The notes beneath the pieces were generated by a model, which worked only from the letters and a program-made list of their open reading frames with translations, had not been told where the DNA came from and searched no databases. A stretch of 32,323 nucleotides of DNA from an uncultured Oscillospiraceae bacterium (GTDB taxonomy: Bacteria > Bacillota > Clostridia > Christensenellales > CAG-314): the NCBI GenBank assembly GCA_964483825.1, contig CAZADD010000005.1, positions 1 to 32,323 on the forward strand, read 5' to 3'. This document shows positions 1 to 13,960 of this stretch, piece by piece. The translations under genes and the position numbers were made by a program. The stretch's first letter is position 1, and every line of letters begins with the position of its first letter.

Positions 1-102
1 GGTTTGGTCAACTTTTCGAATGTAAACCACAGCAAAAGCATAAAAAACATCGATTATTGCATAAAAAAAATGTATAACCTTTTTCAAAAAGAGTATTTAC
101 TT

Positions 103-131
103 TTGCAAATATTTGAACTATGCTATTATAA
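103..131 (+). promoter_or_regulatory. putative sigma70-type promoter of oxidoreductase gene (TTGCAA-17nt-TTATAA)
   Basis: TTGCAA ~103-108, 17-nt spacer, TTATAA ~126-131; GGAGG RBS ~141-145; ATG at 155. Confidence 0.4.
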
Positions 132-154
132 AGCAATAGTGGAGGTATGCTTAT

Positions 155-1528
155 ATGGATAAAAACGTAAGAATTTGTATCATTGGCGGCGGTCCGGCCG
201 GCACAAGTGCAGCAATGTATCTGGAAAAAGCCGGATACGAAAACTACGTCATCTACGAAAAAAGTAACCGCGTTGGCGGCAAAGCATTTTCGCCTTTGAT
301 GAAAGTTAAAAACCCCGACGGCACTTGGGAAGACAGAACCATAGAAATGGGCGCCGTTATGGGTTGCGACACCTACTTTGCGGTGCACGAATGCGAAGAA
401 TTCGGCGGCACGTCGCACTTAGACGGTCCTCCGATGGGAAGAAGATTCATGATGACGGACGGAACTCCGCAAAAATCTTCCAAAATAGCTTTGTTGAAAA
501 AGTTTTTGAAAATGAAAAAGCTGACCAAGCTTTTGAACAAGAAATACAAAGGCTACGACGTTAACGGTCACCGTGGGGTTGCACAGGGCAGATACGAAGG
601 CCAGTGCCCCTCTCCCGAAATGAAATTGGCTCGCATCGAAGGCGAAAACCCCAATTTGAAAGATTTGTCCATGCCGTTTTCGGAATTTTTGAAGATGAAC
701 AAGTGCGAAGACGCAACGTTGGTTTGGAAAGGCCCGTTCACTTCCTTCGGATACGGCTACTTTGACGAAATTCCGGCAGCATACGTTTTGAAATATTTGG
801 ACGCATTCACCGTTCGTCAATTCCTTTCCACCGGCAAACTGTGGACGTGGAAAGACGGCACACAATCCATTTGGGAAGGCGTGAACAACCACCTGAAACA
901 CCCCGCTCAACTTAACAGCGAAGTTACGGCCATCAGAAGAACACCGGACAAGGTTTTTGTCACCGTCAACGGAAAAGAAGAAGAATTTGACAAGTTAATC
1001 ATTTGCACGCCGTTGGAACTGTTCCTTGGCTACGGCGACCCAAGAGAAGAAGAAAAAGAACTGTTCTCGAAGATCGTGCACAAAGAGTACTTCACCATGG
1101 CCGTTCGTCCCGAAGAAGGCAACTGCCCGGATATTTCCTACTACTTCTTTGAAAACATGACCAACGAAACGCGCGGACACTTGATGGTGTTCTACCACCG
1201 CTGGCCGGATGCTACCGATCAACCGCTTGTAACGTTCACGTTGCGCAACCACGAAGGCATGGAAGACGTTTCTTTCGAAGAAGCAAAAGAAACTACCCTT
1301 GCCGACATGGCAAAATGCGGACACCCCGTTGTTCACACGGAAAGAATCGACGACTGGTACTACTTCCCGCATGTTTGCAGCAAGGATTACGCCGACGGCT
1401 GGTACGATAAAGTAGAAGCAATGCAAGGCAAGGACAACACCTACTACGCAGGCGAAATAATGTCCTTTGGCGACATGGAAGAAACGGCAGAATACAGCCG
1501 CGACCTTATCCACAGATTCTTCAAGTAA
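155..1528 (+). CDS. FAD/NAD(P)-binding Rossmann-fold oxidoreductase (amine-oxidase / protoporphyrinogen-oxidase-like flavoprotein)
   Basis: 457-aa ORF. N-terminal dinucleotide-binding motif IIGGGPAGTSAA...YEK...VGGK. GGAGG RBS 9 nt upstream. Followed by a terminator hairpin. Confidence 0.75.
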   Translation: MDKNVRICIIGGGPAGTSAAMYLEKAGYENYVIYEKSNRVGGKAFSPLMKVKNPDGTWEDRTIEMGAVMGCDTYFAVHECEEFGGTSHLDGPPMGRRFMMTDGTPQKSSKIALLKKFLKMKKLTKLLNKKYKGYDVNGHRGVAQGRYEGQCPSPEMKLARIEGENPNLKDLSMPFSEFLKMNKCEDATLVWKGPFTSFGYGYFDEIPAAYVLKYLDAFTVRQFLSTGKLWTWKDGTQSIWEGVNNHLKHPAQLNSEVTAIRRTPDKVFVTVNGKEEEFDKLIICTPLELFLGYGDPREEEKELFSKIVHKEYFTMAVRPEEGNCPDISYYFFENMTNETRGHLMVFYHRWPDATDQPLVTFTLRNHEGMEDVSFEEAKETTLADMAKCGHPVVHTERIDDWYYFPHVCSKDYADGWYDKVEAMQGKDNTYYAGEIMSFGDMEETAEYSRDLIHRFFK

Positions 1529-1565
1529 CGGCACGAACGCCTTTGAACCGTTTGAAAGACACAAA

Positions 1566-1670
1566 GTTTTTGCGGCAACGGCTTTCCCTACCGTTCAACT
1601 TGAACAAAAATTCACTACAACACAAAACGGAGCCAAAAAACGGCTCCGTTTTTTTGAATGGTTGATGAAT
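1566..1670. repeat. 105-bp direct repeat, copy 1 (contains a rho-independent terminator); second copy at 3186-3290
   Basis: Near-identical sequence TTTTTGCGGCAACGGCTTTC..ACCGTTCAACTTGAACAAAAATTCACTACAACACAAAACGGAGC..AAAAAACGGCTCCGTTTTTTTGAATGGTTGATGAAT at both sites; flanks diverge immediately outside. Confidence 0.85.
1625..1657 (+). terminator. rho-independent terminator of oxidoreductase gene
   Basis: Stem AAACGGAGCC / GGCTCCGTTT with A-rich loop, followed by T7 run. Confidence 0.75.
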
Positions 1671-2021
1671 TATGATTTGAGGCACACGCAAACAAAACAG
1701 TTGTTGTTTGCAAAACACGAAAACCGTGTCATTGATAGGAACAAAACCACCTCGCATCACATGGCTGTTTGAAAAATGCGGCTAAACAGGCCGCCAAACT
1801 CCAGTTTAATACTGTTGCCAACAGCGTGAAAATGGTTTTTTACGGCGAGCGGTCACCGTTGATACTGTCGCCGCAAAAAACCAAGTCGCCAATAATATGC
1901 GCGTGATGATTCGGAATGAGCACGCCCCTAGAATACATCCAACTTATCCTTGACAGCGACTTGAAAGGAACACCAAGAGCCCCAAGTCACCACCCTAACG
2001 GATGGCGGCTTAGGTTCCTTT

Positions 2022-2915
2022 TTAGTCTTGCAAAATTTTTAGATATTTATCCAATCTCGCATTGATATATTCCGCAAAGAGTTTTTCCATAGCGGACAAA
2101 TTGTGCTTTGCATGGTATTCGTCAAACGCATTGTAGTAAGCCAAGCGATCCGTGAACTTAATGTCAATGGGCGGAAATCCGGCTTTCATAAGTTCCAAAT
2201 TAACAAGCAATCGGCCCGTTCTTCCGTTACCGTCAATGAATGGATGAATACCTTCAAATTCAATGTGAAAACGGGCCAATTTTGTTACAACGTGTTCTTT
2301 GCTTTCGGCAAAGTCGCGCAAAAGCTGCTCTATCTTTTCTTGAATGAGATACGGCTCGGTCGGCTCGTGCTGTGCGCCCATGATGCGAACGGGAACTTTG
2401 CGGTATACGCCTCGATCGTCCTTCTTGTCCGCAAGAACAAGATAGTGAATTTCTTTGATTACACGCTCGCTGATGGGCACGTTGTTTACCACAAGCTCTC
2501 GAACATATTCAAACGCCTCTTTGTGGCCCACCGCTTCCATGTGATCTTTCAGTGGTTTGCGGTCGACGGTTAGCCCCCTGAGAACCAAATCGGTTTCACG
2601 CAAGGTCAGCGTGTTGCCCTCAATGGCGTTGGAATTGTAGGTGTATTCAACGGCAAATTCTTCGTTCAAGCGTTCCGCTTCCCCCTCGGTCAGCGGTCTG
2701 CGACTGTCAAGTTCCGCCTTTTTTTTGTCTATTTGTGCAAGAATGCTCTCTTGAGATTTGTACCTTCCGTCCGACGGTTTTTCCGCATCGGCAGGAATTT
2801 TCCACCCGCGCCCCTCTTGAAACGCTCCCGAAATTTTACCCTCGGCACAAAGCACGCGAACTCTCCTTTCGGAAACGCCCCACTTTTCCGCAGCTCTTTT
2901 AACAGTCATGAACAT
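2022..2915 (-). CDS. Fic/Doc family protein (AMPylator-type) with N-terminal HTH and intramolecular inhibitory helix motif
   Basis: 297 aa. Canonical Fic motif HPFIDGNGRTGR. Upstream SNAIEGN matches the (S/T)xxxE(G/N) inhibitory motif. N-terminal MTVKRAAEKWGVSERRVRVLCAEGKISGA resembles an excisionase/MerR-like HTH. Confidence 0.9.
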   Translation of the reverse strand: MFMTVKRAAEKWGVSERRVRVLCAEGKISGAFQEGRGWKIPADAEKPSDGRYKSQESILAQIDKKKAELDSRRPLTEGEAERLNEEFAVEYTYNSNAIEGNTLTLRETDLVLRGLTVDRKPLKDHMEAVGHKEAFEYVRELVVNNVPISERVIKEIHYLVLADKKDDRGVYRKVPVRIMGAQHEPTEPYLIQEKIEQLLRDFAESKEHVVTKLARFHIEFEGIHPFIDGNGRTGRLLVNLELMKAGFPPIDIKFTDRLAYYNAFDEYHAKHNLSAMEKLFAEYINARLDKYLKILQD

Positions 2916-2973
2916 GCTCGTTATTCCTCCCGTTCGTGTTTATTATACCACACTTTCGGAACAATATCAATAG

Positions 2974-3009
2974 TAGCGGAATAATATTTTGCAAATTAGC
3001 GGAATAATA
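2974..3009 (-). promoter_or_regulatory. two 13-bp direct repeats TAGCGGAATAATA (about 23 bp centre to centre) upstream of fic; candidate operator in promoter region
   Basis: Exact 13-mer repeated at ~2974-2986 and ~2997-3009, 60-95 bp upstream of the fic start codon (2915). The Fic protein carries its own HTH. Confidence 0.35.
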
Positions 3010-3185
3010 GCTCTTGTTGGAGTATCTTTCCGTCGGGTACGGATATAAAAAACCGTGCAACGTACAAGCCAAGAACGTTGCGCTTTTTGTGCGTGCAAAC
3101 GACATCTTTTTCATGCTTGAAGTACAAAGCAATAGTTTTACAAGTATCTTGCCGCTTGTTTTCCGCTAGACGAACAGTTTTTTTC

Positions 3186-3290
3186 TTTTTGCGGCAACGG
3201 CTTTCGGCACCGTTCAACTTGAACAAAAATTCACTACAACACAAAACGGAGCAGAAAAAACGGCTCCGTTTTTTTGAATGGTTGATGAAT
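3186..3290. repeat. 105-bp direct repeat, copy 2 (with terminator hairpin ~3245-3278)
   Basis: About 95% identical to 1566-1670; together they bracket the fic gene. Confidence 0.85.
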
Positions 3291-3421
3291 ACGCACCATG
3301 TTTTCGTGCTCTTTCCACAAAATTATTTCAACGATATTGACAACTACCCAAATTAAATGTATTATTATTTTGTAAACAAACATTAAAATCGGCGATACGG
3401 TCGATTGAAGGAGGTTTTTTC

Positions 3422-4006
3422 GTGTTTTGGGAAAATTTGTCGCTTCTTGCGAAAATTTTGTTTTGCACCGGCATTGGCTCCACCGCCATTTTGCTGATAC
3501 AGATAATTTTGATGATAATCGGCTTTGCCGGCGATGCTTTCGGCGACGTTGACGTAGACATCGATGCCGACGGCGACGTGGATTTGGACGGTGCCGGCGA
3601 CGGAATAGGTTTGTTCACCATAAAAGGCCTTGTTGCATTCTTTTCCATAGGCAGTTGGACGGGTTTTGCAATGGACGTTTCCGGTTGCAACGAAGTGCTT
3701 TCCGTTTGCATTGCCGTGCTTGTGGGGGCGGCCGCACTTGTGGGCGTAGGCTTTTTGTACAAAGCGTTGAACAAGTTGCAATCCAACGGCAATTTGAACA
3801 TGGCCAACGCCATCGGAAAAACCGCCGAAGTGTATCTCACCGTTCCTGCAAACAATTCCGGCACAGGCAAAGTAACGCTGGAAGTTCAGGAAAAGTTTGT
3901 GGAAGCAACGGCTCGCACCACCGCCGAAAACGCCATTCCAACGGGATCGATAGTTAAAGTTGTGGATACCGTTAACGGCGAACTGATAGTAGAATTAAGT
4001 AAATAA
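3422..4006 (+). CDS. NfeD-like membrane protein (YuaF/YqiJ type, C-terminal OB-fold), flotillin partner
   Basis: 194 aa. N-terminal TM helices, acidic DVDVDIDADGDVDLDGAGDG stretch, C-terminal beta-rich domain. GTG start with GGAGG RBS. Immediately upstream of the flotillin gene with a 15-bp gap. Confidence 0.8.
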   Translation: MFWENLSLLAKILFCTGIGSTAILLIQIILMIIGFAGDAFGDVDVDIDADGDVDLDGAGDGIGLFTIKGLVAFFSIGSWTGFAMDVSGCNEVLSVCIAVLVGAAALVGVGFLYKALNKLQSNGNLNMANAIGKTAEVYLTVPANNSGTGKVTLEVQEKFVEATARTTAENAIPTGSIVKVVDTVNGELIVELSK

Positions 4007-4021
4007 CAGGAGGTAACAACT

Positions 4022-5458
4022 ATGCTCAACATTTTTGCAACCATCACCAGCGGAGCGATAGCCGGCATTGTAGTGGCGGCCGTTCTCGTTTTAACGTCGA
4101 TATTTTTGATGTTCCTTTCTCGCTACAAAAAGTGCCCGTCGGATAAAATAATGGTTATCTACGGCAAAATCGGCAAAAACAGCGACGGTACGTCTCGCAG
4201 CGCAAAATGTATTCACGGCGGCGCCGCATTTATCGTGCCGGTTATTCAAGCGCACGCATTTTTGGATTTGACCCCCATTTCCATCAGCGTGGACCTTCGC
4301 AACGCCCTTTCCAAACAAAACATTCGTGTTGACGTTCCGTCCCGATTCACCGTTGGTATTTCCACCGAACCGGGCATCATGCAAAACGCCGCCGAACGCC
4401 TTTTGGGGCTTTCGTTGAACGAAATTCAAGAGTTGGCAAAAGATATAATTTTGGGCCAATTGCGTTTGGTTATTGCAACGATGGAAATTGAAGAAATCAA
4501 CAACGACAGAGACAAATTTTTGGAAGCCGTTTCTCGCAACGTGGAAACGGAATTGAAAAAGATTGGTTTGCGCCTTATCAACGTTAACGTAACGGATATC
4601 AGCGACGAAAGCGGCTACATCAGCGCACTTGGTAAAGAAGCGGCAGCAAAAGCTATCAACGCTGCAAAAATTTCCGTTGCCGAAGCGGACAAAGAAGGTT
4701 CTATCGGTGCCGCAAACGCATTGAGAGAGCAAAGAATAATGGTTTCGCAAGCGGAAGCGGAAGCCATTAAGGGCGAAAACGACGCAAAGGCGGAAATTGC
4801 AACTGCGCAAGCAACGTTGAGAGAAAAGGAAGCCGAAGCAACCAAAATTGCCACCGTTGCGGAAAAGACCAAGAGTGCGGAAGCGTTGGAAGAATCCTAC
4901 TCGGCGGAAAAACTTGCCGAACAAGCCCGTGCCGCCCGTGACCAAGCAACTTTGGAAGCCGACGTAATTGTCAAAACGGATATTGAAAAACGCCGCAGAG
5001 AAATAGATGCCGAAGCCGAAGCGGAACAAATTCGCCGCAGAGCACAAGGTGAAGCGGACGCAATCTACGCAAAACTGGAAGCACAAGCACGCGGCGTGAA
5101 AGCGTTGTTGGATAACCAAGCGCAAGGTTATGCGGAAATTGTTAAGGCTGCCGGCGGCGACGCAAACGCTGCAATGCGCTTGATGATAACGGACAAAATG
5201 GAAAGCCTTGTCAAAACGCAAGTTGAAGCAATCAAAAACATCAAAATTGACAAAATCACCGTGTGGGATTCCGGCAAGGGCGAAGACGGCAAAACATCCA
5301 CTGCAAACTTTTTATCCGGACTTTTGCAAAGCTTGCCCCCGATGACGGACCTTTTCGACATGGCCGGCTTGCAACTTCCCGAAGTTTTGAACGCGCAAAA
5401 GAAAGTTGAAGAACCCCCTAAAACAGAAGACAACACAGAAATCAAAACAGAAGAATAG
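4022..5458 (+). CDS. floT: flotillin-family SPFH domain protein (FloT/YuaG-like)
   Basis: 478 aa. N-terminal TM segment, SPFH core, long Ala/Glu-rich coiled-coil (EA repeats) typical of flotillins. GGAGG RBS. Operon with NfeD as in B. subtilis yuaF-floT. Confidence 0.88.
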   Translation: MLNIFATITSGAIAGIVVAAVLVLTSIFLMFLSRYKKCPSDKIMVIYGKIGKNSDGTSRSAKCIHGGAAFIVPVIQAHAFLDLTPISISVDLRNALSKQNIRVDVPSRFTVGISTEPGIMQNAAERLLGLSLNEIQELAKDIILGQLRLVIATMEIEEINNDRDKFLEAVSRNVETELKKIGLRLINVNVTDISDESGYISALGKEAAAKAINAAKISVAEADKEGSIGAANALREQRIMVSQAEAEAIKGENDAKAEIATAQATLREKEAEATKIATVAEKTKSAEALEESYSAEKLAEQARAARDQATLEADVIVKTDIEKRRREIDAEAEAEQIRRRAQGEADAIYAKLEAQARGVKALLDNQAQGYAEIVKAAGGDANAAMRLMITDKMESLVKTQVEAIKNIKIDKITVWDSGKGEDGKTSTANFLSGLLQSLPPMTDLFDMAGLQLPEVLNAQKKVEEPPKTEDNTEIKTEE

Positions 5459-5595: not shown

Positions 5596-5996
5596 CAAAA
5601 CCCCGTCGCTGTATGAGTGTTACCCTTAACGGAGAACACGCAATGAATTGCAATCGTGTTGCATGAATTGACAGCGAGTGTCATGAATTGCAGTAAACTG
5701 CATGAATTGCCCTGTGGGCATTATATTCGTTGCAATTCAATTCATGGAGTAGGCGAAGAGCCGTCGAGAAATCATGGCGAAGCCAATTCATTATGCGTCA
5801 GCATAAATTCATCCATAAAAATGAAAAGAGCAAGAATAGAATGTTTTAATCATTGCACTCTTGCTCTTTTTGCTTGTAAATATGGGTTTGGGCTTGGCTC
5901 AATAAAGCATTCGACTAGTTAAATGCGATGCTCGCACTTAGTAAGACTTTTCAATCTCTCCGCTAAGAATATCACGCTGTAGTGCGACGGGGTTTT
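5596..5996. repeat. ~400-bp element bounded by 17-bp perfect inverted repeats (CAACAAAACCCCGTCGC / GCGACGGGGTTTTGTTG) with an internal CATGAATTG array; MITE-like or regulatory module
   Basis: Inverted repeats at ~5596-5612 and ~5978-5996. Four direct copies of (T/G)CATGAATTG at ~5641-5708 spaced ~20 bp, then inverted copies CAATTCATG / CAATTCATT at ~5735-5795. Internal hairpin plus T-run at ~5823-5870. Confidence 0.35.
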
Positions 5997-7305: not shown

Positions 7306-7535
7306 AATTTTTCAAAGTGTTTTGTGCAAAAGCTTATTGGCAAACCACAAAGCTTTATCATGCCGAAAATTATTGCAAAAAAAACGCCCTCTGCGAATGA
7401 ATTTTGAAGGGTCGCCTTGTTTTGCTTAGTGCGTGTAGAGCGGAATAATTGCTTGAAATTTTGCCAAACTACCAAACGAAATAACCCTTCGTGAACTGCC
7501 AATGGGAAAACACTTCCGTTACAAAACAAAACACA

Positions 7536-13247: not shown

Positions 13248-13539
13248 GATATTCTCCTTCTTATGCGCCCTAAGCGCGTTATAGTAGTGGTTTTTGCTTG
13301 GCAAAAAAGTGCAAAACGCCCACTTCCCACCATAGCATTCGTTTTATTTTAACAAATAGCAAAACATAAGTCAAGTGTTTGCGCAACAACGGCACCACAA
13401 CAACCAATAACTTTTTGCAAGGGGCTTTTCCGTATTTTGTTGCGATGTTGAATACACCAAACTCAAGTTTTGGAGAAAAAGAAAGCTGGCACAGTAGGAT
13501 ACTTTTTGTGAATTTGTACATCTTTTAGATAAGTATAAT

Positions 13540-13960
13540 GAAAAAATATTTTGCACACAAATTTCTTTCTAACCCACCAACAAGGTAGTGTTAATAAAAC
13601 GGAATATTGCAATATGTTGTGGTTCACAAAGGCTCCCCTAACGTGCCTCAACTCTTCACTCGGCTGCACAGCAGCCACTTGGCTCCTTTGTGTAAAGAGA
13701 GCTGGAAGCGACTTCGTCGCAGTTAAAAGATAAGAGAGAAAAGAGAAAAGAAAAGGATACATTTTTTGAAATCTGAATAGTTGTTTTTGACAAATAGACT
13801 AGAAAAAATAGTTTTTTTCGTCAATTTTTACTAAAGGCACCATTTTTTGCTATTCACTATTACTTTTTCATTCGGTTACGTCAATACCCCTCTCAGTCAC
13901 CTGCGGTGCCAGCTCTCCCCAAGGGGCGAGCCAAGTGAGATAATTGCCCAATTGTGAAGC
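13540..13960. repeat. mosaic intergenic repeat cluster (family shared with 21540-21780, 22700-22900 and 26380-27180)
   Basis: Contains AAAAATATTTTGCACACAAATTT, CGACTTCGTCGC(C)AGTTAAAAGATAAGAGAGAAAAGAGAAAAGAAA, TTTTTGACAAATAGACTAG...TCGTCAATTTTTACTAAAG and CCCTCTCAGTCACCTGCGGTGCCAGCTCTCCCCAAGGGGCGAGCCAAG modules, all recurring elsewhere in the window. Confidence 0.8.

What the first reader, a model, noticed from the sequence alone, without database searches (positions are those of the whole stretch)
1566..3290. Fic/Doc gene carried between 105-bp direct repeats that duplicate the terminator of the upstream gene
A 105-bp sequence including the oxidoreductase terminator hairpin is repeated at about 95% identity on both sides of a 1.5-kb segment. 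That segment holds a single gene, a class-II-type autoinhibited Fic AMPylator fused to an HTH. Sequence outside the repeats diverges immediately. This looks like a single-gene cassette inserted by site-specific or repeat-mediated recombination, or a tandem-duplication scar. Fic proteins are common toxin or effector cargo. Tandem TAGCGGAATAATA repeats upstream suggest autoregulation by the HTH.
Basis: seen in the sequence. Interest (0 to 1): 0.6.

Follow-up and report, generated by a model that had tools for sequence, protein, structure and literature searches.

The report
Strain-specific Fic gene islet between duplicated terminators
A 1.6-kb piece of foreign DNA carrying one self-regulated Fic (protein-AMPylating, toxin- or defence-type) gene sits just after a gene terminator in one strain of a gut Oscillospiraceae bacterium, duplicating 105 bp of the target; a sister strain still has the empty site, so this is a real but fairly ordinary small genomic islet.

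Summary
Copy A (1567-1670) and copy B (3186-3290) match at 100 of 105 aligned positions, have sharp ends, and occur nowhere else in the window. A conspecific contig (L096, 97% nt identity) has one copy of the unit, with A's left flank and B's right flank. The window therefore holds a 1,620-bp insertion (1,515-bp cargo plus one unit).

The sister species L001 has unrelated cargo at the same spot. A further species has neither fic nor the unit.

The cargo is one transcription unit, 2020-3010. It comprises three conserved TATT(A/G)TTCCG boxes overlapping a strong promoter, followed by a 297-aa class II Fic protein. That protein has an N-terminal excisionase/MerR-type HTH, SxxxEG at 95-100 and HPFIDGNGRTGR at 224-235.

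The same module, with the same boundaries, recurs as a prophage moron, beside large serine recombinases, and in BREX and restriction-modification islands.

No recombinase, terminal inverted repeats or attC-like site is present. The structure is what a single reciprocal crossover would leave between the chromosomal unit and a copy on incoming circular DNA. Whether RecA or a recombinase acting in trans did this is unresolved.

It is a new member of a known kind, of moderate-low interest.

The parts
155..1528 (+). FAD-dependent amine-oxidase-like oxidoreductase. Conserved left neighbour, whose terminator lies in the repeat.
   Evidence: Pfam Amino_oxidase 4e-14. Syntenic in L001, L096 and L097-L102.
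1567..1670 (+). Direct-repeat copy A (104 nt). It resembles the empty-site unit of L096 over its 5' two-thirds.
1624..1655 (.). Intrinsic terminator hairpin inside copy A, with an A-run before and a T-run after, so probably bidirectional. It would end the oxidoreductase transcript and, by inference, also the convergent fic transcript.
   Evidence: Sequence. RNA fold: minimum free energy -41.3 kcal/mol, z = -3.6, hairpin present in the centroid structure.
1671..2021 (.). Left part of the cargo, origin unknown, no supported ORF. Holds a terminator-like site for fic at 1794..1778 (-) and an inverted repeat at 1833-1848 / 1868-1883.
   Evidence: No match in phages, plasmids or 203 loci. Terminator scan. 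Inverted repeat I11. Only short ORFs.
2022..2915 (-). HTH-Fic gene, 297 aa. N-terminal winged HTH (about residues 1-45), inhibitory motif S95-N-A-I-E99-G100, catalytic loop H224-PFIDGNGRTG-R235.
   Evidence: Pfam Fic 1e-20, HTH_17 1e-5. FICD 5e-25 with the inhibitory helix aligned. Both motifs invariant in 31 homologues. N-terminal domain pLDDT about 86-91. PADLOC PDC-S04 1e-40, SoFic 7e-29.
2942..2970 (-). fic promoter: TTGATA, 17-nt spacer, TGgTATAAT (11 of 12 matches, extended -10).
   Evidence: Conserved in homologous loci.
2957..3009 (-). Three operator-like boxes, TATT(A/G)TTCCG on the fic strand, at 3000-3009, 2977-2986 and 2957-2966. The last lies in the -35/-10 spacer.
   Evidence: Conserved in sequence and spacing in about 15 independent contexts. 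DNA homology to every other fic locus ends at box 1.
3010..3185 (.). Right part of the cargo, origin unknown. Contains a bidirectional terminator-like hairpin, GCAACGT...ACGTTGC, at 3067-3091, flanked by A and T runs. It is probably a leftover from the donor context.
   Evidence: Sequence. No match anywhere.
3186..3290 (+). Direct-repeat copy B (105 nt). Carries private variants (GGC, and AG in the terminator loop). Terminator at 3243-3275.
3337..3365 (+). Promoter of the downstream membrane-protein/flotillin operon, left intact by the insertion.
   Evidence: TTGACA-17-TATTAT. Conserved in L096, L001 and L098.
3422..5458 (+). Conserved right neighbours: a 194-aa membrane protein (NfeD-like by position only, no Pfam hit) and an SPFH/flotillin protein.
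   Evidence: Band_7 1e-26. Syntenic in L001 and L096-L102.

Best explanation
This is a strain-variable genomic islet.

SHOWN: relative to a conspecific strain, 1,620 bp (1,515 bp of foreign cargo plus a second copy of a 105-bp unit) is inserted immediately after the oxidoreductase terminator. It lies upstream of the promoter of the next operon.

INFERRED MECHANISM: the geometry (X-U-cargo-U'-Y against X-U-Y) is the product of one reciprocal crossover between the chromosomal unit and a copy of the same unit on an incoming circular DNA. This is Campbell-type insertion-duplication.
- Copy A keeps the native-like variants in its 5' 70 nt.
- Copy B carries private variants there.
- The last 36 nt are identical in both copies. 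The crossover is therefore placed just after the terminator.
- The cargo encodes no recombinase, so the event was RecA-mediated or catalysed in trans.
- The same repeats allow precise loss of the islet.
- Duplicating the terminator keeps the oxidoreductase terminated and the downstream promoter insulated.

CARGO: a self-contained transcription unit that travels widely among Firmicutes phages and mobile elements.
- It has a strong sigma-70-type promoter overlapped by three TATT(A/G)TTCCG boxes.
- It encodes a class II (glutamate-autoinhibited) Fic AMP-transferase with an N-terminal excisionase/MerR-type winged HTH.
- Inferred: the HTH binds the boxes and represses its own promoter.
- Inferred: the Fic domain AMPylates a cellular target when released from autoinhibition, acting as a toxin or abortive-infection defence module of the PDC-S04/SoFic kind.
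For: Evidence for an insertion:
- L096 is 97% identical over 6 kb. It has a single unit with A's left flank and B's right flank.
- L096's unit has private variants of its own, so it is not a recent excision product of this allele.
- Outgroups lack fic. L001 has unrelated 1.9-kb AT-rich cargo, and L097-L102 have an unrelated 660-bp spacer.

Evidence on the repeats:
- The repeats are host-site sequence with sharp ends.
- The unit is not dispersed.

Evidence against an autonomous element:
- No recombinase or transposase was found in the cargo or in the rest of the window, which is the dnaA/yidC/jag origin region.
- There are no terminal inverted repeats.
- There is no shared motif with the two other repeat-flanked segments in the window.

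Evidence that the fic module is mobile and discrete:
- Homology to 100+ loci always spans 2020-3010 only.
- Contexts are: between TerL and portal in proviruses, beside large serine recombinases, in a BREX island, in a type I RM/IS21 island, and on a RepA_N contig.

Evidence on the operator and the protein:
- The boxes are conserved at fixed spacing.
- Both Fic motifs are invariant. The protein aligns to FICD through the inhibitory helix and matches PADLOC PDC-S04 and SoFic.
- SoFic binds its own promoter and AMPylates EF-Tu (bioRxiv 10.64898/2026.07.09.737422). Sofic is a toxic defence protein (PMC12249575).
Against: - No circular form, donor context or second copy of the cargo flanks was found, so the incoming molecule is hypothetical.
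- A circle that already carries the host unit needs a prior step: excision from another repeat-flanked allele, or circularisation of a donor fragment where the cargo abuts the unit.
- The variants in copy B could equally be post-duplication mutations (two events).
- Only three genomes of this species complex are available.
- The window is a metagenome-assembled contig. Integration in the chromosome, rather than a free circle plus an empty site, is inferred from the assembly path, not from reads.
- Fic function and HTH-box binding are untested. The one published test of a PDC-S04 gene found no defence activity (bioRxiv 10.1101/2024.12.20.629700).
- The AlphaFold model of the Fic core was poor (pLDDT 58.6).
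Confidence: 0.55

Rival explanations
1. It is a decayed or satellite site-specific element (CIME-like). On this reading the 105-bp repeats are attL and attR of a tyrosine-recombinase element that targets the region just after the terminator. The integrase has been lost or acts in trans from a related element.
For: - Sharp-ended direct repeats flanking foreign DNA with no recombinase fit the CIME definition (PMC5704250).
- The same intergenic site holds different cargo in L001, with faint extra copies of the terminator's 3' half at its right end.
- The window also has a 228-nt, 89%-identical duplication of the rtcB 3' end flanking a single ATPase gene. This pattern is known from integrases that target gene 3' ends.
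- fic homologues often sit next to recombinases.
Against: - No integrase is present in the window.
- None of 81 other oxidoreductase loci has an element or a repeat at this site.
- The recombinases found beside fic elsewhere are large serine recombinases, which do not create long direct repeats.
- No motif is shared among the three repeat units in the window.
- The L001 repeat traces are barely above shuffles (score 25 against a maximum of 22).
Confidence: 0.2
2. It arose by illegitimate or one-sided homologous capture (homology-facilitated illegitimate recombination, or break repair at the terminator hairpin). A linear donor fragment of the form cargo-U-downstream recombined homologously on its right side. 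Its left end joined illegitimately just after the recipient's own unit, which duplicated the unit.
For: - Copy A is native-like, and copy B plus its immediate right flank is the most divergent stretch against L096: 90% in 3186-3335, compared with 96-100% elsewhere.
- No recombinase is needed.
- Terminator hairpins look like insertion-prone sites here. A 366-bp element sits in the loop of the next terminator.
Against: - No extended donor-type tract is seen to the right. Identity returns to 96-100% within 150 bp.
- Such events usually delete rather than duplicate recipient DNA (general knowledge).
- No donor with cargo directly abutting a single unit was found.
Confidence: 0.12
3. It is a tandem-duplication scar. 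A segment beginning with the unit was duplicated in tandem, and the second copy was deleted down to the unit.
For: In another species a fic-bearing block is followed by 55-, 80- or 193-nt copies of an upstream terminator unit in different contigs. That looks like variable truncation of a second copy.
Against: - In the window, the junction of copy B with the right flank matches the junction of the unit with the right flank in the empty site. An exact deletion of the second cargo copy would therefore be required.
- Outgroups show the cargo is foreign, not ancestral.
Confidence: 0.03
4. It is an assembly artefact. On this reading the true state is an empty chromosome plus a separate molecule or strain carrying the cargo next to the unit, threaded together through shared k-mers.
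For: - The window is a metagenome contig.
- The variant pattern (A native-like, B private, 3' third identical) is also what a graph traversal through a shared 36-47-nt stretch would give.
Against: - Both unit-cargo junctions must exist in real reads, so the cargo is physically joined to the unit on both sides in some molecule.
- A 1.6-kb replicon with no replication gene is implausible.
- The 89%-identical rtcB repeats elsewhere in the window cannot be a collapse artefact.
Confidence: 0.05

Closest known systems
Class II Fic proteins: human FICD/HYPE, Clostridioides difficile CdFic (4X2C), Bacteroides BtFic (3CUC)
   Same: The Fic core HPFxDGNGRxxR is shared. So is an inhibitory helix, (S/T)xxxE(G/N), N-terminal to the core in the same chain. 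The best PDB hits are FICD at 5e-25, aligned through the inhibitory motif, then 3CUC and 4X2C.
   Different: The window protein has an N-terminal excisionase/MerR-type HTH. It lacks the TPR and transmembrane parts of FICD and has no C-terminal domain. Its target and activity are unknown.
SoFic / Sofic anti-phage defence protein (Shewanella, E. coli)
   Same: Both are class II Fic proteins fused to a DNA-binding domain. SoFic binds its own promoter and AMPylates EF-Tu (bioRxiv 10.64898/2026.07.09.737422). Sofic is toxic and defensive (PMC12249575). The PADLOC SoFic model hits at 7e-29.
   Different: - The HTH is N-terminal here, whereas SoFic has a C-terminal winged HTH.
- The NCBIfam SoFic equivalog scores 38.5 bits against a cutoff of 550.
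- No AS1-like small gene is supported downstream.
- The best PADLOC family is the unvalidated candidate PDC-S04 at 1e-40.
CIME (cis-mobilizable element; decayed ICE/IME that keeps attL and attR)
   Same: Foreign DNA without integration or transfer genes, bounded by direct repeats at the 3' side of a conserved gene (definition in PMC5704250).
   Different: - No cognate integrase or parent element is known for this site.
- The repeats are long (105 bp).
- No sequence is shared with the other repeat-flanked segments.
Campbell-type insertion-duplication / icd-type 3'-end duplication by phage 21 and e14 (from general knowledge)
   Same: A single crossover in a segment that the incoming DNA shares with the chromosome leaves that segment duplicated on both sides and keeps the upstream gene and its terminator intact.
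   Different: Those elements are full prophages with integrases. Here the insert is 1.5 kb with one cargo gene.
Prophage morons
   Same: Homologues of this exact module (boxes, promoter, gene) sit between terminase and portal genes in several proviruses as independent transcription units.
   Different: The window copy is not in a prophage. It lies between chromosomal core genes near the replication origin.

Membership tests
Fic/Fido, class II (intramolecular N-terminal inhibition) | Catalytic loop HxFx(D/E)GN(G/K)RxxR | tested here: met
   H224-P-F-I-D-G-N-G-R-T-G-R235, invariant in 31 homologues. Pfam Fic 1e-20.
Fic/Fido, class II (intramolecular N-terminal inhibition) | Inhibitory motif (S/T)xxxE(G/N) in the same polypeptide, N-terminal to the core | tested here: met
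   S95-N-A-I-E99-G100, invariant. Aligned to the TVAIEGN inhibitory helix of FICD.
Fic/Fido, class II (intramolecular N-terminal inhibition) | AMPylation or deAMPylation activity, relieved by mutating the inhibitory Glu | not testable with these tools
   Needs biochemistry.
SoFic defence system | Curated family match (NCBIfam equivalog) | tested here: not met
   NF046030 scores 38.5 bits against a cutoff of 550, and only residues 209-271 match. The PADLOC SoFic HMM hits at 7e-29, but PDC-S04 scores better.
SoFic defence system | Architecture: Fic core followed by a C-terminal winged HTH | tested here: not met
   The HTH is at residues 1-45. The protein ends right after the Fic core.
SoFic defence system | Protection against phage | not testable with these tools
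A PDC-S04 gene tested elsewhere gave no defence (bioRxiv 10.1101/2024.12.20.629700).
PADLOC candidate PDC-S04 | HMM match over the family model | tested here: met
   PDLC04836 at 1.3e-40, residues 84-293 against model positions 22-232 of 244. The family itself is an unvalidated candidate.
CIME / decayed integrative element | Flanked by direct repeats (attL and attR) and lacking integration and transfer genes | tested here: met
   105-bp repeats. No recombinase in the cargo.
CIME / decayed integrative element | The repeats are att sites of a known integrase, and related autonomous elements occupy the same site | tested here: inconclusive
   No integrase in the window. No element or repeat at this site in 81 other loci. 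Only three genomes of the species complex are available.
Integron cassette / CALIN | attC: a single long imperfect palindrome with R''/L''-L'/R' boxes, and intI nearby | tested here: not met
   The unit folds into separate small hairpins plus a terminator, not one bulged hairpin. No integrase is present.
IS / transposon / MITE | Terminal inverted repeats and a short target-site duplication | tested here: not met
   No inverted repeats at the cargo ends. The duplication is 105 bp.

The most novel reading that the evidence does not exclude
Terminator-containing units may act as recombination sites for a so-far undescribed way of moving small, recombinase-less gene cassettes in gut Clostridia.

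Observations that leave this open:
- This 32-kb window holds three segments bracketed by 105-228-nt direct repeats. Each repeat duplicates the 3' end or terminator of the upstream gene: fic, an ATPase_2/DUF234 gene after rtcB, and a gene-less 350-bp spacer.
- A small element also sits inside a terminator loop.
- An unrelated species has a fic-bearing block bracketed by copies of the LysR terminator.
Probability: 0.08. Interest if true: 0.7.

Novelty: new member of a known kind. Interest (0 to 1): 0.35.

Why it matters
- It is a clean, polarised example, with filled and empty alleles at 97% identity, of how a single accessory gene enters a core-genome interval without disturbing its neighbours. 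The duplicated terminator keeps the upstream gene terminated and the downstream promoter insulated.
- It defines a compact, very widespread HTH-Fic module: three operator boxes, a promoter and the gene, about 990 bp. The module moves between prophages, serine-recombinase elements, defence islands and chromosomes of gut Firmicutes.
- The module matches an untested defence candidate (PDC-S04). That makes it a tractable target for testing autoregulated Fic toxins in phage defence.
- The mechanism that creates 100-230-bp target duplications without a resident recombinase is unresolved. It is the only part that could turn out to be new.

Tried and rejected
- Exact look-ups of the window's own Fic and oxidoreductase proteins found nothing.
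- A 23-nt core of the unit has no exact match in metagenome contigs or IMG/VR.
- Rfam has no family for the unit, the cargo or the 366-bp element.
- The cargo flanks 1671-2019 and 3010-3185 were tested as remnants of neighbouring genes from other fic loci (serine recombinase, DUF5131 and others). There were no significant tblastn hits.
- Those flanks also have no DNA match in phages, plasmids or 203 loci.
- I looked for a small antitoxin like AS1 downstream of fic. Only unsupported ORFs of 21-32 aa are present.
- An integron attC reading is rejected on structure. A transposon reading is rejected because there are no terminal inverted repeats.
- A common recombination motif among the three repeat-flanked segments was sought and not found.
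No conspecific exists; the closest RtcB is 82% identical and its contig ends at the gene.
- The AlphaFold2 model built from 31 shallow homologues was too poor for a fold search (pLDDT 58.6), except for the N-terminal HTH.
- The divergence profile against L096 showed no long donor tract.
Full report
**1. The observation**

Reading 1-4500 and aligning the two regions shows a direct repeat. Copy A is 1567-1670 and copy B is 3186-3290. The copies differ in two places:
- a 3-nt cluster (CCT in A, GGC in B) in the loop of a small AACGG/CCGTT hairpin;
- the loop of the terminator hairpin (GCC-AAAAAAC in A, GCAGAAAAAAC in B).

The 47 nt between these sites and the last 36 nt are identical. Similarity ends abruptly on all four sides. 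A 42-nt core occurs exactly twice in the window and never in 100 shuffles.

The unit contains the intrinsic terminator of the upstream gene at 1624-1655 (AAAACGGAGCC, loop, GGCTCCGTTTTTTT), which folds as expected.

**2. Gene content**

- The upstream gene (155-1528) is an FAD amine-oxidase-like oxidoreductase.
- Downstream lie a 194-aa membrane protein with no Pfam hit (NfeD-like by position only) and an SPFH/flotillin gene.
- Between the repeats the only credible gene is 2022-2915 on the minus strand.
- It has Pfam Fic at 1e-20, plus a marginal N-terminal HTH_17 (excisionase/MerR type) hit.
- The rest of the window is ordinary chromosome near the origin: dnaA, yidC, jag/KhpB, rtcB and a large glycoside hydrolase. 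It has no integrase or transposase.

**3. Comparative test: filled and empty sites**

The oxidoreductase is widespread, with 80 genome loci fetched. Only close relatives share the downstream operon. The 90%-identity cluster of the adjacent membrane protein has three members: the window, L001 and a Logan contig, L096.

L096 (conspecific):
- It is 97% identical to the window over about 6 kb.
- It has just 271 bp between the two genes.
- These comprise one copy of the unit, preceded by copy A's left flank and followed by copy B's right flank and the same promoter.
- The window therefore carries a 1,620-bp insertion: 1,515 bp of cargo plus one extra unit.
- L096's unit has private variants (a shorter loop, and GAAGGGTTGTCCAAT at its 3' end). 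It is an independent empty lineage, not a fresh excision product.

L001 (sister species, about 92% nt identity):
- It has a different 1.9-kb AT-rich cargo at the same spot, including a 139-aa lipoprotein-like ORF and no recombinase.
- Homology to the window resumes within a few bases of the end of copy B.
- Its right end carries weak extra traces of the terminator's 3' half. The local score was 25, against a maximum of 22 in 300 shuffles, so this is suggestive only.

L097-L102 (a further species) have an unrelated 660-bp spacer.

So fic is a derived insertion in a hypervariable intergenic hot spot. The unit is not dispersed, and fic is not conserved in synteny (and above).

**4. What the cargo is**

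More than 100 separate 90%-identity clusters sit at 84-90% identity to this protein.

DNA homology between the window and every other fic locus examined always spans 2020-3010 only. This was seen in LSR elements, defence islands, proviruses, a streptococcal phage, plasmids and three further contigs. It runs from the stop codon to the first operator box, at 67-81% nt identity against 68-90% aa identity.

Contexts of the module:
- directly upstream of a 576-aa large serine recombinase at the edge of an element next to rimP-nusA;
- among three serine recombinases (L104);
- between the large terminase subunit and the portal gene in four proviruses, a classic moron position;
- in a type I RM/IS21 island;
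- next to BrxL (BREX);
- on a RepA_N/IstB contig.

Upstream of the gene, three boxes TATT(A/G)TTCCG are conserved at fixed spacing, with 13 nt and 10 nt between them. The third lies between a TTGATA -35 and an extended -10, TGgTATAAT. In the window these boxes are at 3000-3009, 2977-2986 and 2957-2966.

The remaining cargo, 1671-2019 and 3010-3185, matches nothing and has no supported ORF. It holds terminator-like hairpins on each side of the module: 1794..1778 on the fic strand, and 3067-3091. The insert therefore looks like an insulated fragment of an unknown donor.

**5. The protein**

- The catalytic loop H224-PFIDGNGRTG-R235 and the inhibitory motif S95-NAIE99-G100 are invariant in 31 homologues.
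- The best solved relatives are FICD (5e-25, aligned through the inhibitory TVAIEGN helix), BtFic 3CUC and CdFic 4X2C. All are class II.
- AlphaFold2 with a shallow alignment gave a poor core (mean pLDDT 58.6). It gave a confident N-terminal strand-helix-helix-hairpin domain at residues 1-45, consistent with a winged HTH.
- PADLOC gives PDC-S04 at 1e-40 and SoFic at 7e-29.
- The NCBIfam SoFic equivalog is far below its cutoff, and the HTH is N-terminal rather than C-terminal. It is therefore not a SoFic orthologue.

From the literature:
- Sofic is a toxic abortive-infection protein with a small downstream antitoxin (PMC12249575).
- SoFic AMPylates EF-Tu and binds its own promoter (bioRxiv 10.64898/2026.07.09.737422).
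- PDC-S04 is an unvalidated candidate, and one native-host test was negative (bioRxiv 10.1101/2024.12.20.629700).

Autorepression through the three boxes and a toxin or defence role are therefore inferences by analogy. They are supported by the co-conservation of the boxes with the gene.

**6. How the insertion arose**

What is shown is the geometry: X-U-cargo-U'-Y against X-U-Y, with sharp repeat ends and host-derived repeats.

Tests that came out negative:
- no recombinase in the cargo or the window;
- no terminal inverted repeats;
- no attC-like fold;
- among 99 other fic loci with usable flanks, long non-coding direct repeats flank fic only in one unrelated locus family, so the repeats are a property of the site, not of the module;
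- none of 81 other oxidoreductase loci has a repeat of its post-stop region.

Variant pattern: copy A shares CCT and GCC with the empty-site unit, copy B has private states there, and both share the 3' 36 nt. If B's variants came from the incoming DNA, a reciprocal crossover just after the terminator explains the pattern. If not, B simply mutated twice.

I favour a Campbell-type single crossover between the chromosomal unit and the same unit on a circular incoming molecule. This is insertion-duplication, either RecA-mediated or catalysed in trans.

Rivals:
- a CIME-like decayed site-specific element (definition in PMC5704250);
- one-sided homologous plus illegitimate capture;
- a tandem-duplication scar, which is disfavoured because B's right junction equals the empty-site junction;
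- an assembly path through a free circle, which cannot be excluded without reads but still requires the cargo to abut the unit on both sides.

Divergence against L096 is mosaic. It peaks at copy B and its first 45 nt of right flank (90%) and shows no long donor tract.

**7. Recurrence**

The window has two more segments with the same architecture:
- A 228-nt, 89%-identical duplication of the rtcB 3' end brackets a single opposite-strand ATPase_2/DUF234 gene.
- A 173-nt, 90%-identical terminator-containing repeat brackets a gene-less 350 bp.

The three units and the cargo ends share no motif. This argues against one dedicated site-specific system and for generic processes or independent events.

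In another species, a block of flavodoxin, a 265-aa gene and fic is bracketed by 80-193-nt copies of the LysR terminator region. The downstream sequence varies between contigs.

Relative to L096, the window also has a 366-bp element inserted in the loop of the next terminator hairpin, with a 7-bp CGCTGTA duplication. Together these keep open a low-probability reading that terminator-proximal duplication-insertion is a systematic process in these bacteria.

**8. Verdict**

This is a small strain-specific islet carrying a widespread mobile HTH-Fic module. It is a new member of known kinds: a genomic islet or CIME-like insertion, and a class II Fic/PDC-S04 module. Interest is moderate-low. The unresolved origin of the long target duplications is the only potentially novel element.

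Noticed in passing
window 5614-5980: A 366-bp insertion, absent from the conspecific L096, lies exactly in the loop of the bidirectional terminator hairpin between the flotillin and TM2/SHOCT genes (CAACAAAACCCCGTCGC...GCGACGGGGTTTTGTTG). It is flanked by a 7-bp CGCTGTA duplication and has weak terminal inverted similarity (TTAACGGAGA / TTAGCGGAGA). It holds 5-6 CATGAATTGC-like motifs and its own hairpin at 5855-5870. It looks MITE-like. There was no Rfam hit and no other copy in the window or the loci.
   Followed up: partly
window 18944-19175 and 21237-21468: A direct repeat of about 228 nt at 89% identity duplicates the last 75 or so codons of rtcB. It brackets a single opposite-strand ATPase_2/DUF234 gene (19421-20809). 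The second copy is a 3' gene fragment (ORF 21037-21468, RtcB C-terminus). The architecture is the same as the fic islet and resembles the icd-type 3'-end duplication. No conspecific genome was available to look for an empty site.
   Followed up: partly
window 23950-24122 and 24473-24643: A 173-nt direct repeat at 90% identity, ending in a terminator hairpin (AAAAAGAGAACA...TGTTCTCTTTTT), brackets about 350 bp with no ORF, just upstream of dnaA's 3' end. It may be an emptied or decayed cassette.
   Followed up: no
window 13520-13920, 21570-21735, 22600-22790, 26400-27135: Several families of 45-90-nt dispersed intergenic repeats at 70-92% identity occur here. Examples are CAGTTAAAAGATAAGAGAGAAAAGAG... 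and CTTCACTATTCAC/TATCCACA-like motifs, some resembling DnaA boxes. They cluster around dnaA and neighbouring genes.
   Followed up: no
L001 9396-11329: The sister species has unrelated AT-rich 1.9-kb cargo at the same intergenic site (a 139-aa lipoprotein-like ORF and no recombinase). Its right end has weak partial copies of the terminator's 3' half (CCGGCTCCGTTTTGCGGGTT...TCCAAT and TTTTTTGCAGTTTTGTCAAAT). The site is an insertion hot spot.
   Followed up: partly
L139, L142, L146, L148 (for example L139 2400-2592 and 4997-5189): In a human-gut species, a block of flavodoxin, a 265-aa gene, fic and a macro-domain fragment is bracketed by direct copies of the LysR terminator region. The copies are 55, 80 or 193 nt long, at 97-100% identity. 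Contigs diverge at different points inside the right copy. This is a second, independent case of a fic-bearing segment between duplicated terminators. Assembly chimeras cannot be excluded.
   Followed up: partly
L001-L080 (oxidoreductase loci): The 457-aa FAD oxidoreductase is unusually conserved, at 78-99% aa identity, across MAGs labelled Oscillospiraceae, Christensenellales, Erysipelotrichaceae and Atopobiaceae/Olsenella. It occurs twice in one MAG (L002, L003). Either selection is strong or the gene moves horizontally.
   Followed up: no
L116 1515-3899: The large terminase subunit next to a prophage fic moron is 794 aa and carries a LAGLIDADG_3 domain, so it is probably interrupted by an intein or a homing endonuclease.
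   Followed up: no
window 7331-7480: This is a 150-nt patch at only 81% identity to L096, inside an otherwise 97-100% identical stretch. It is a local hypervariable or recombined segment.
   Followed up: no
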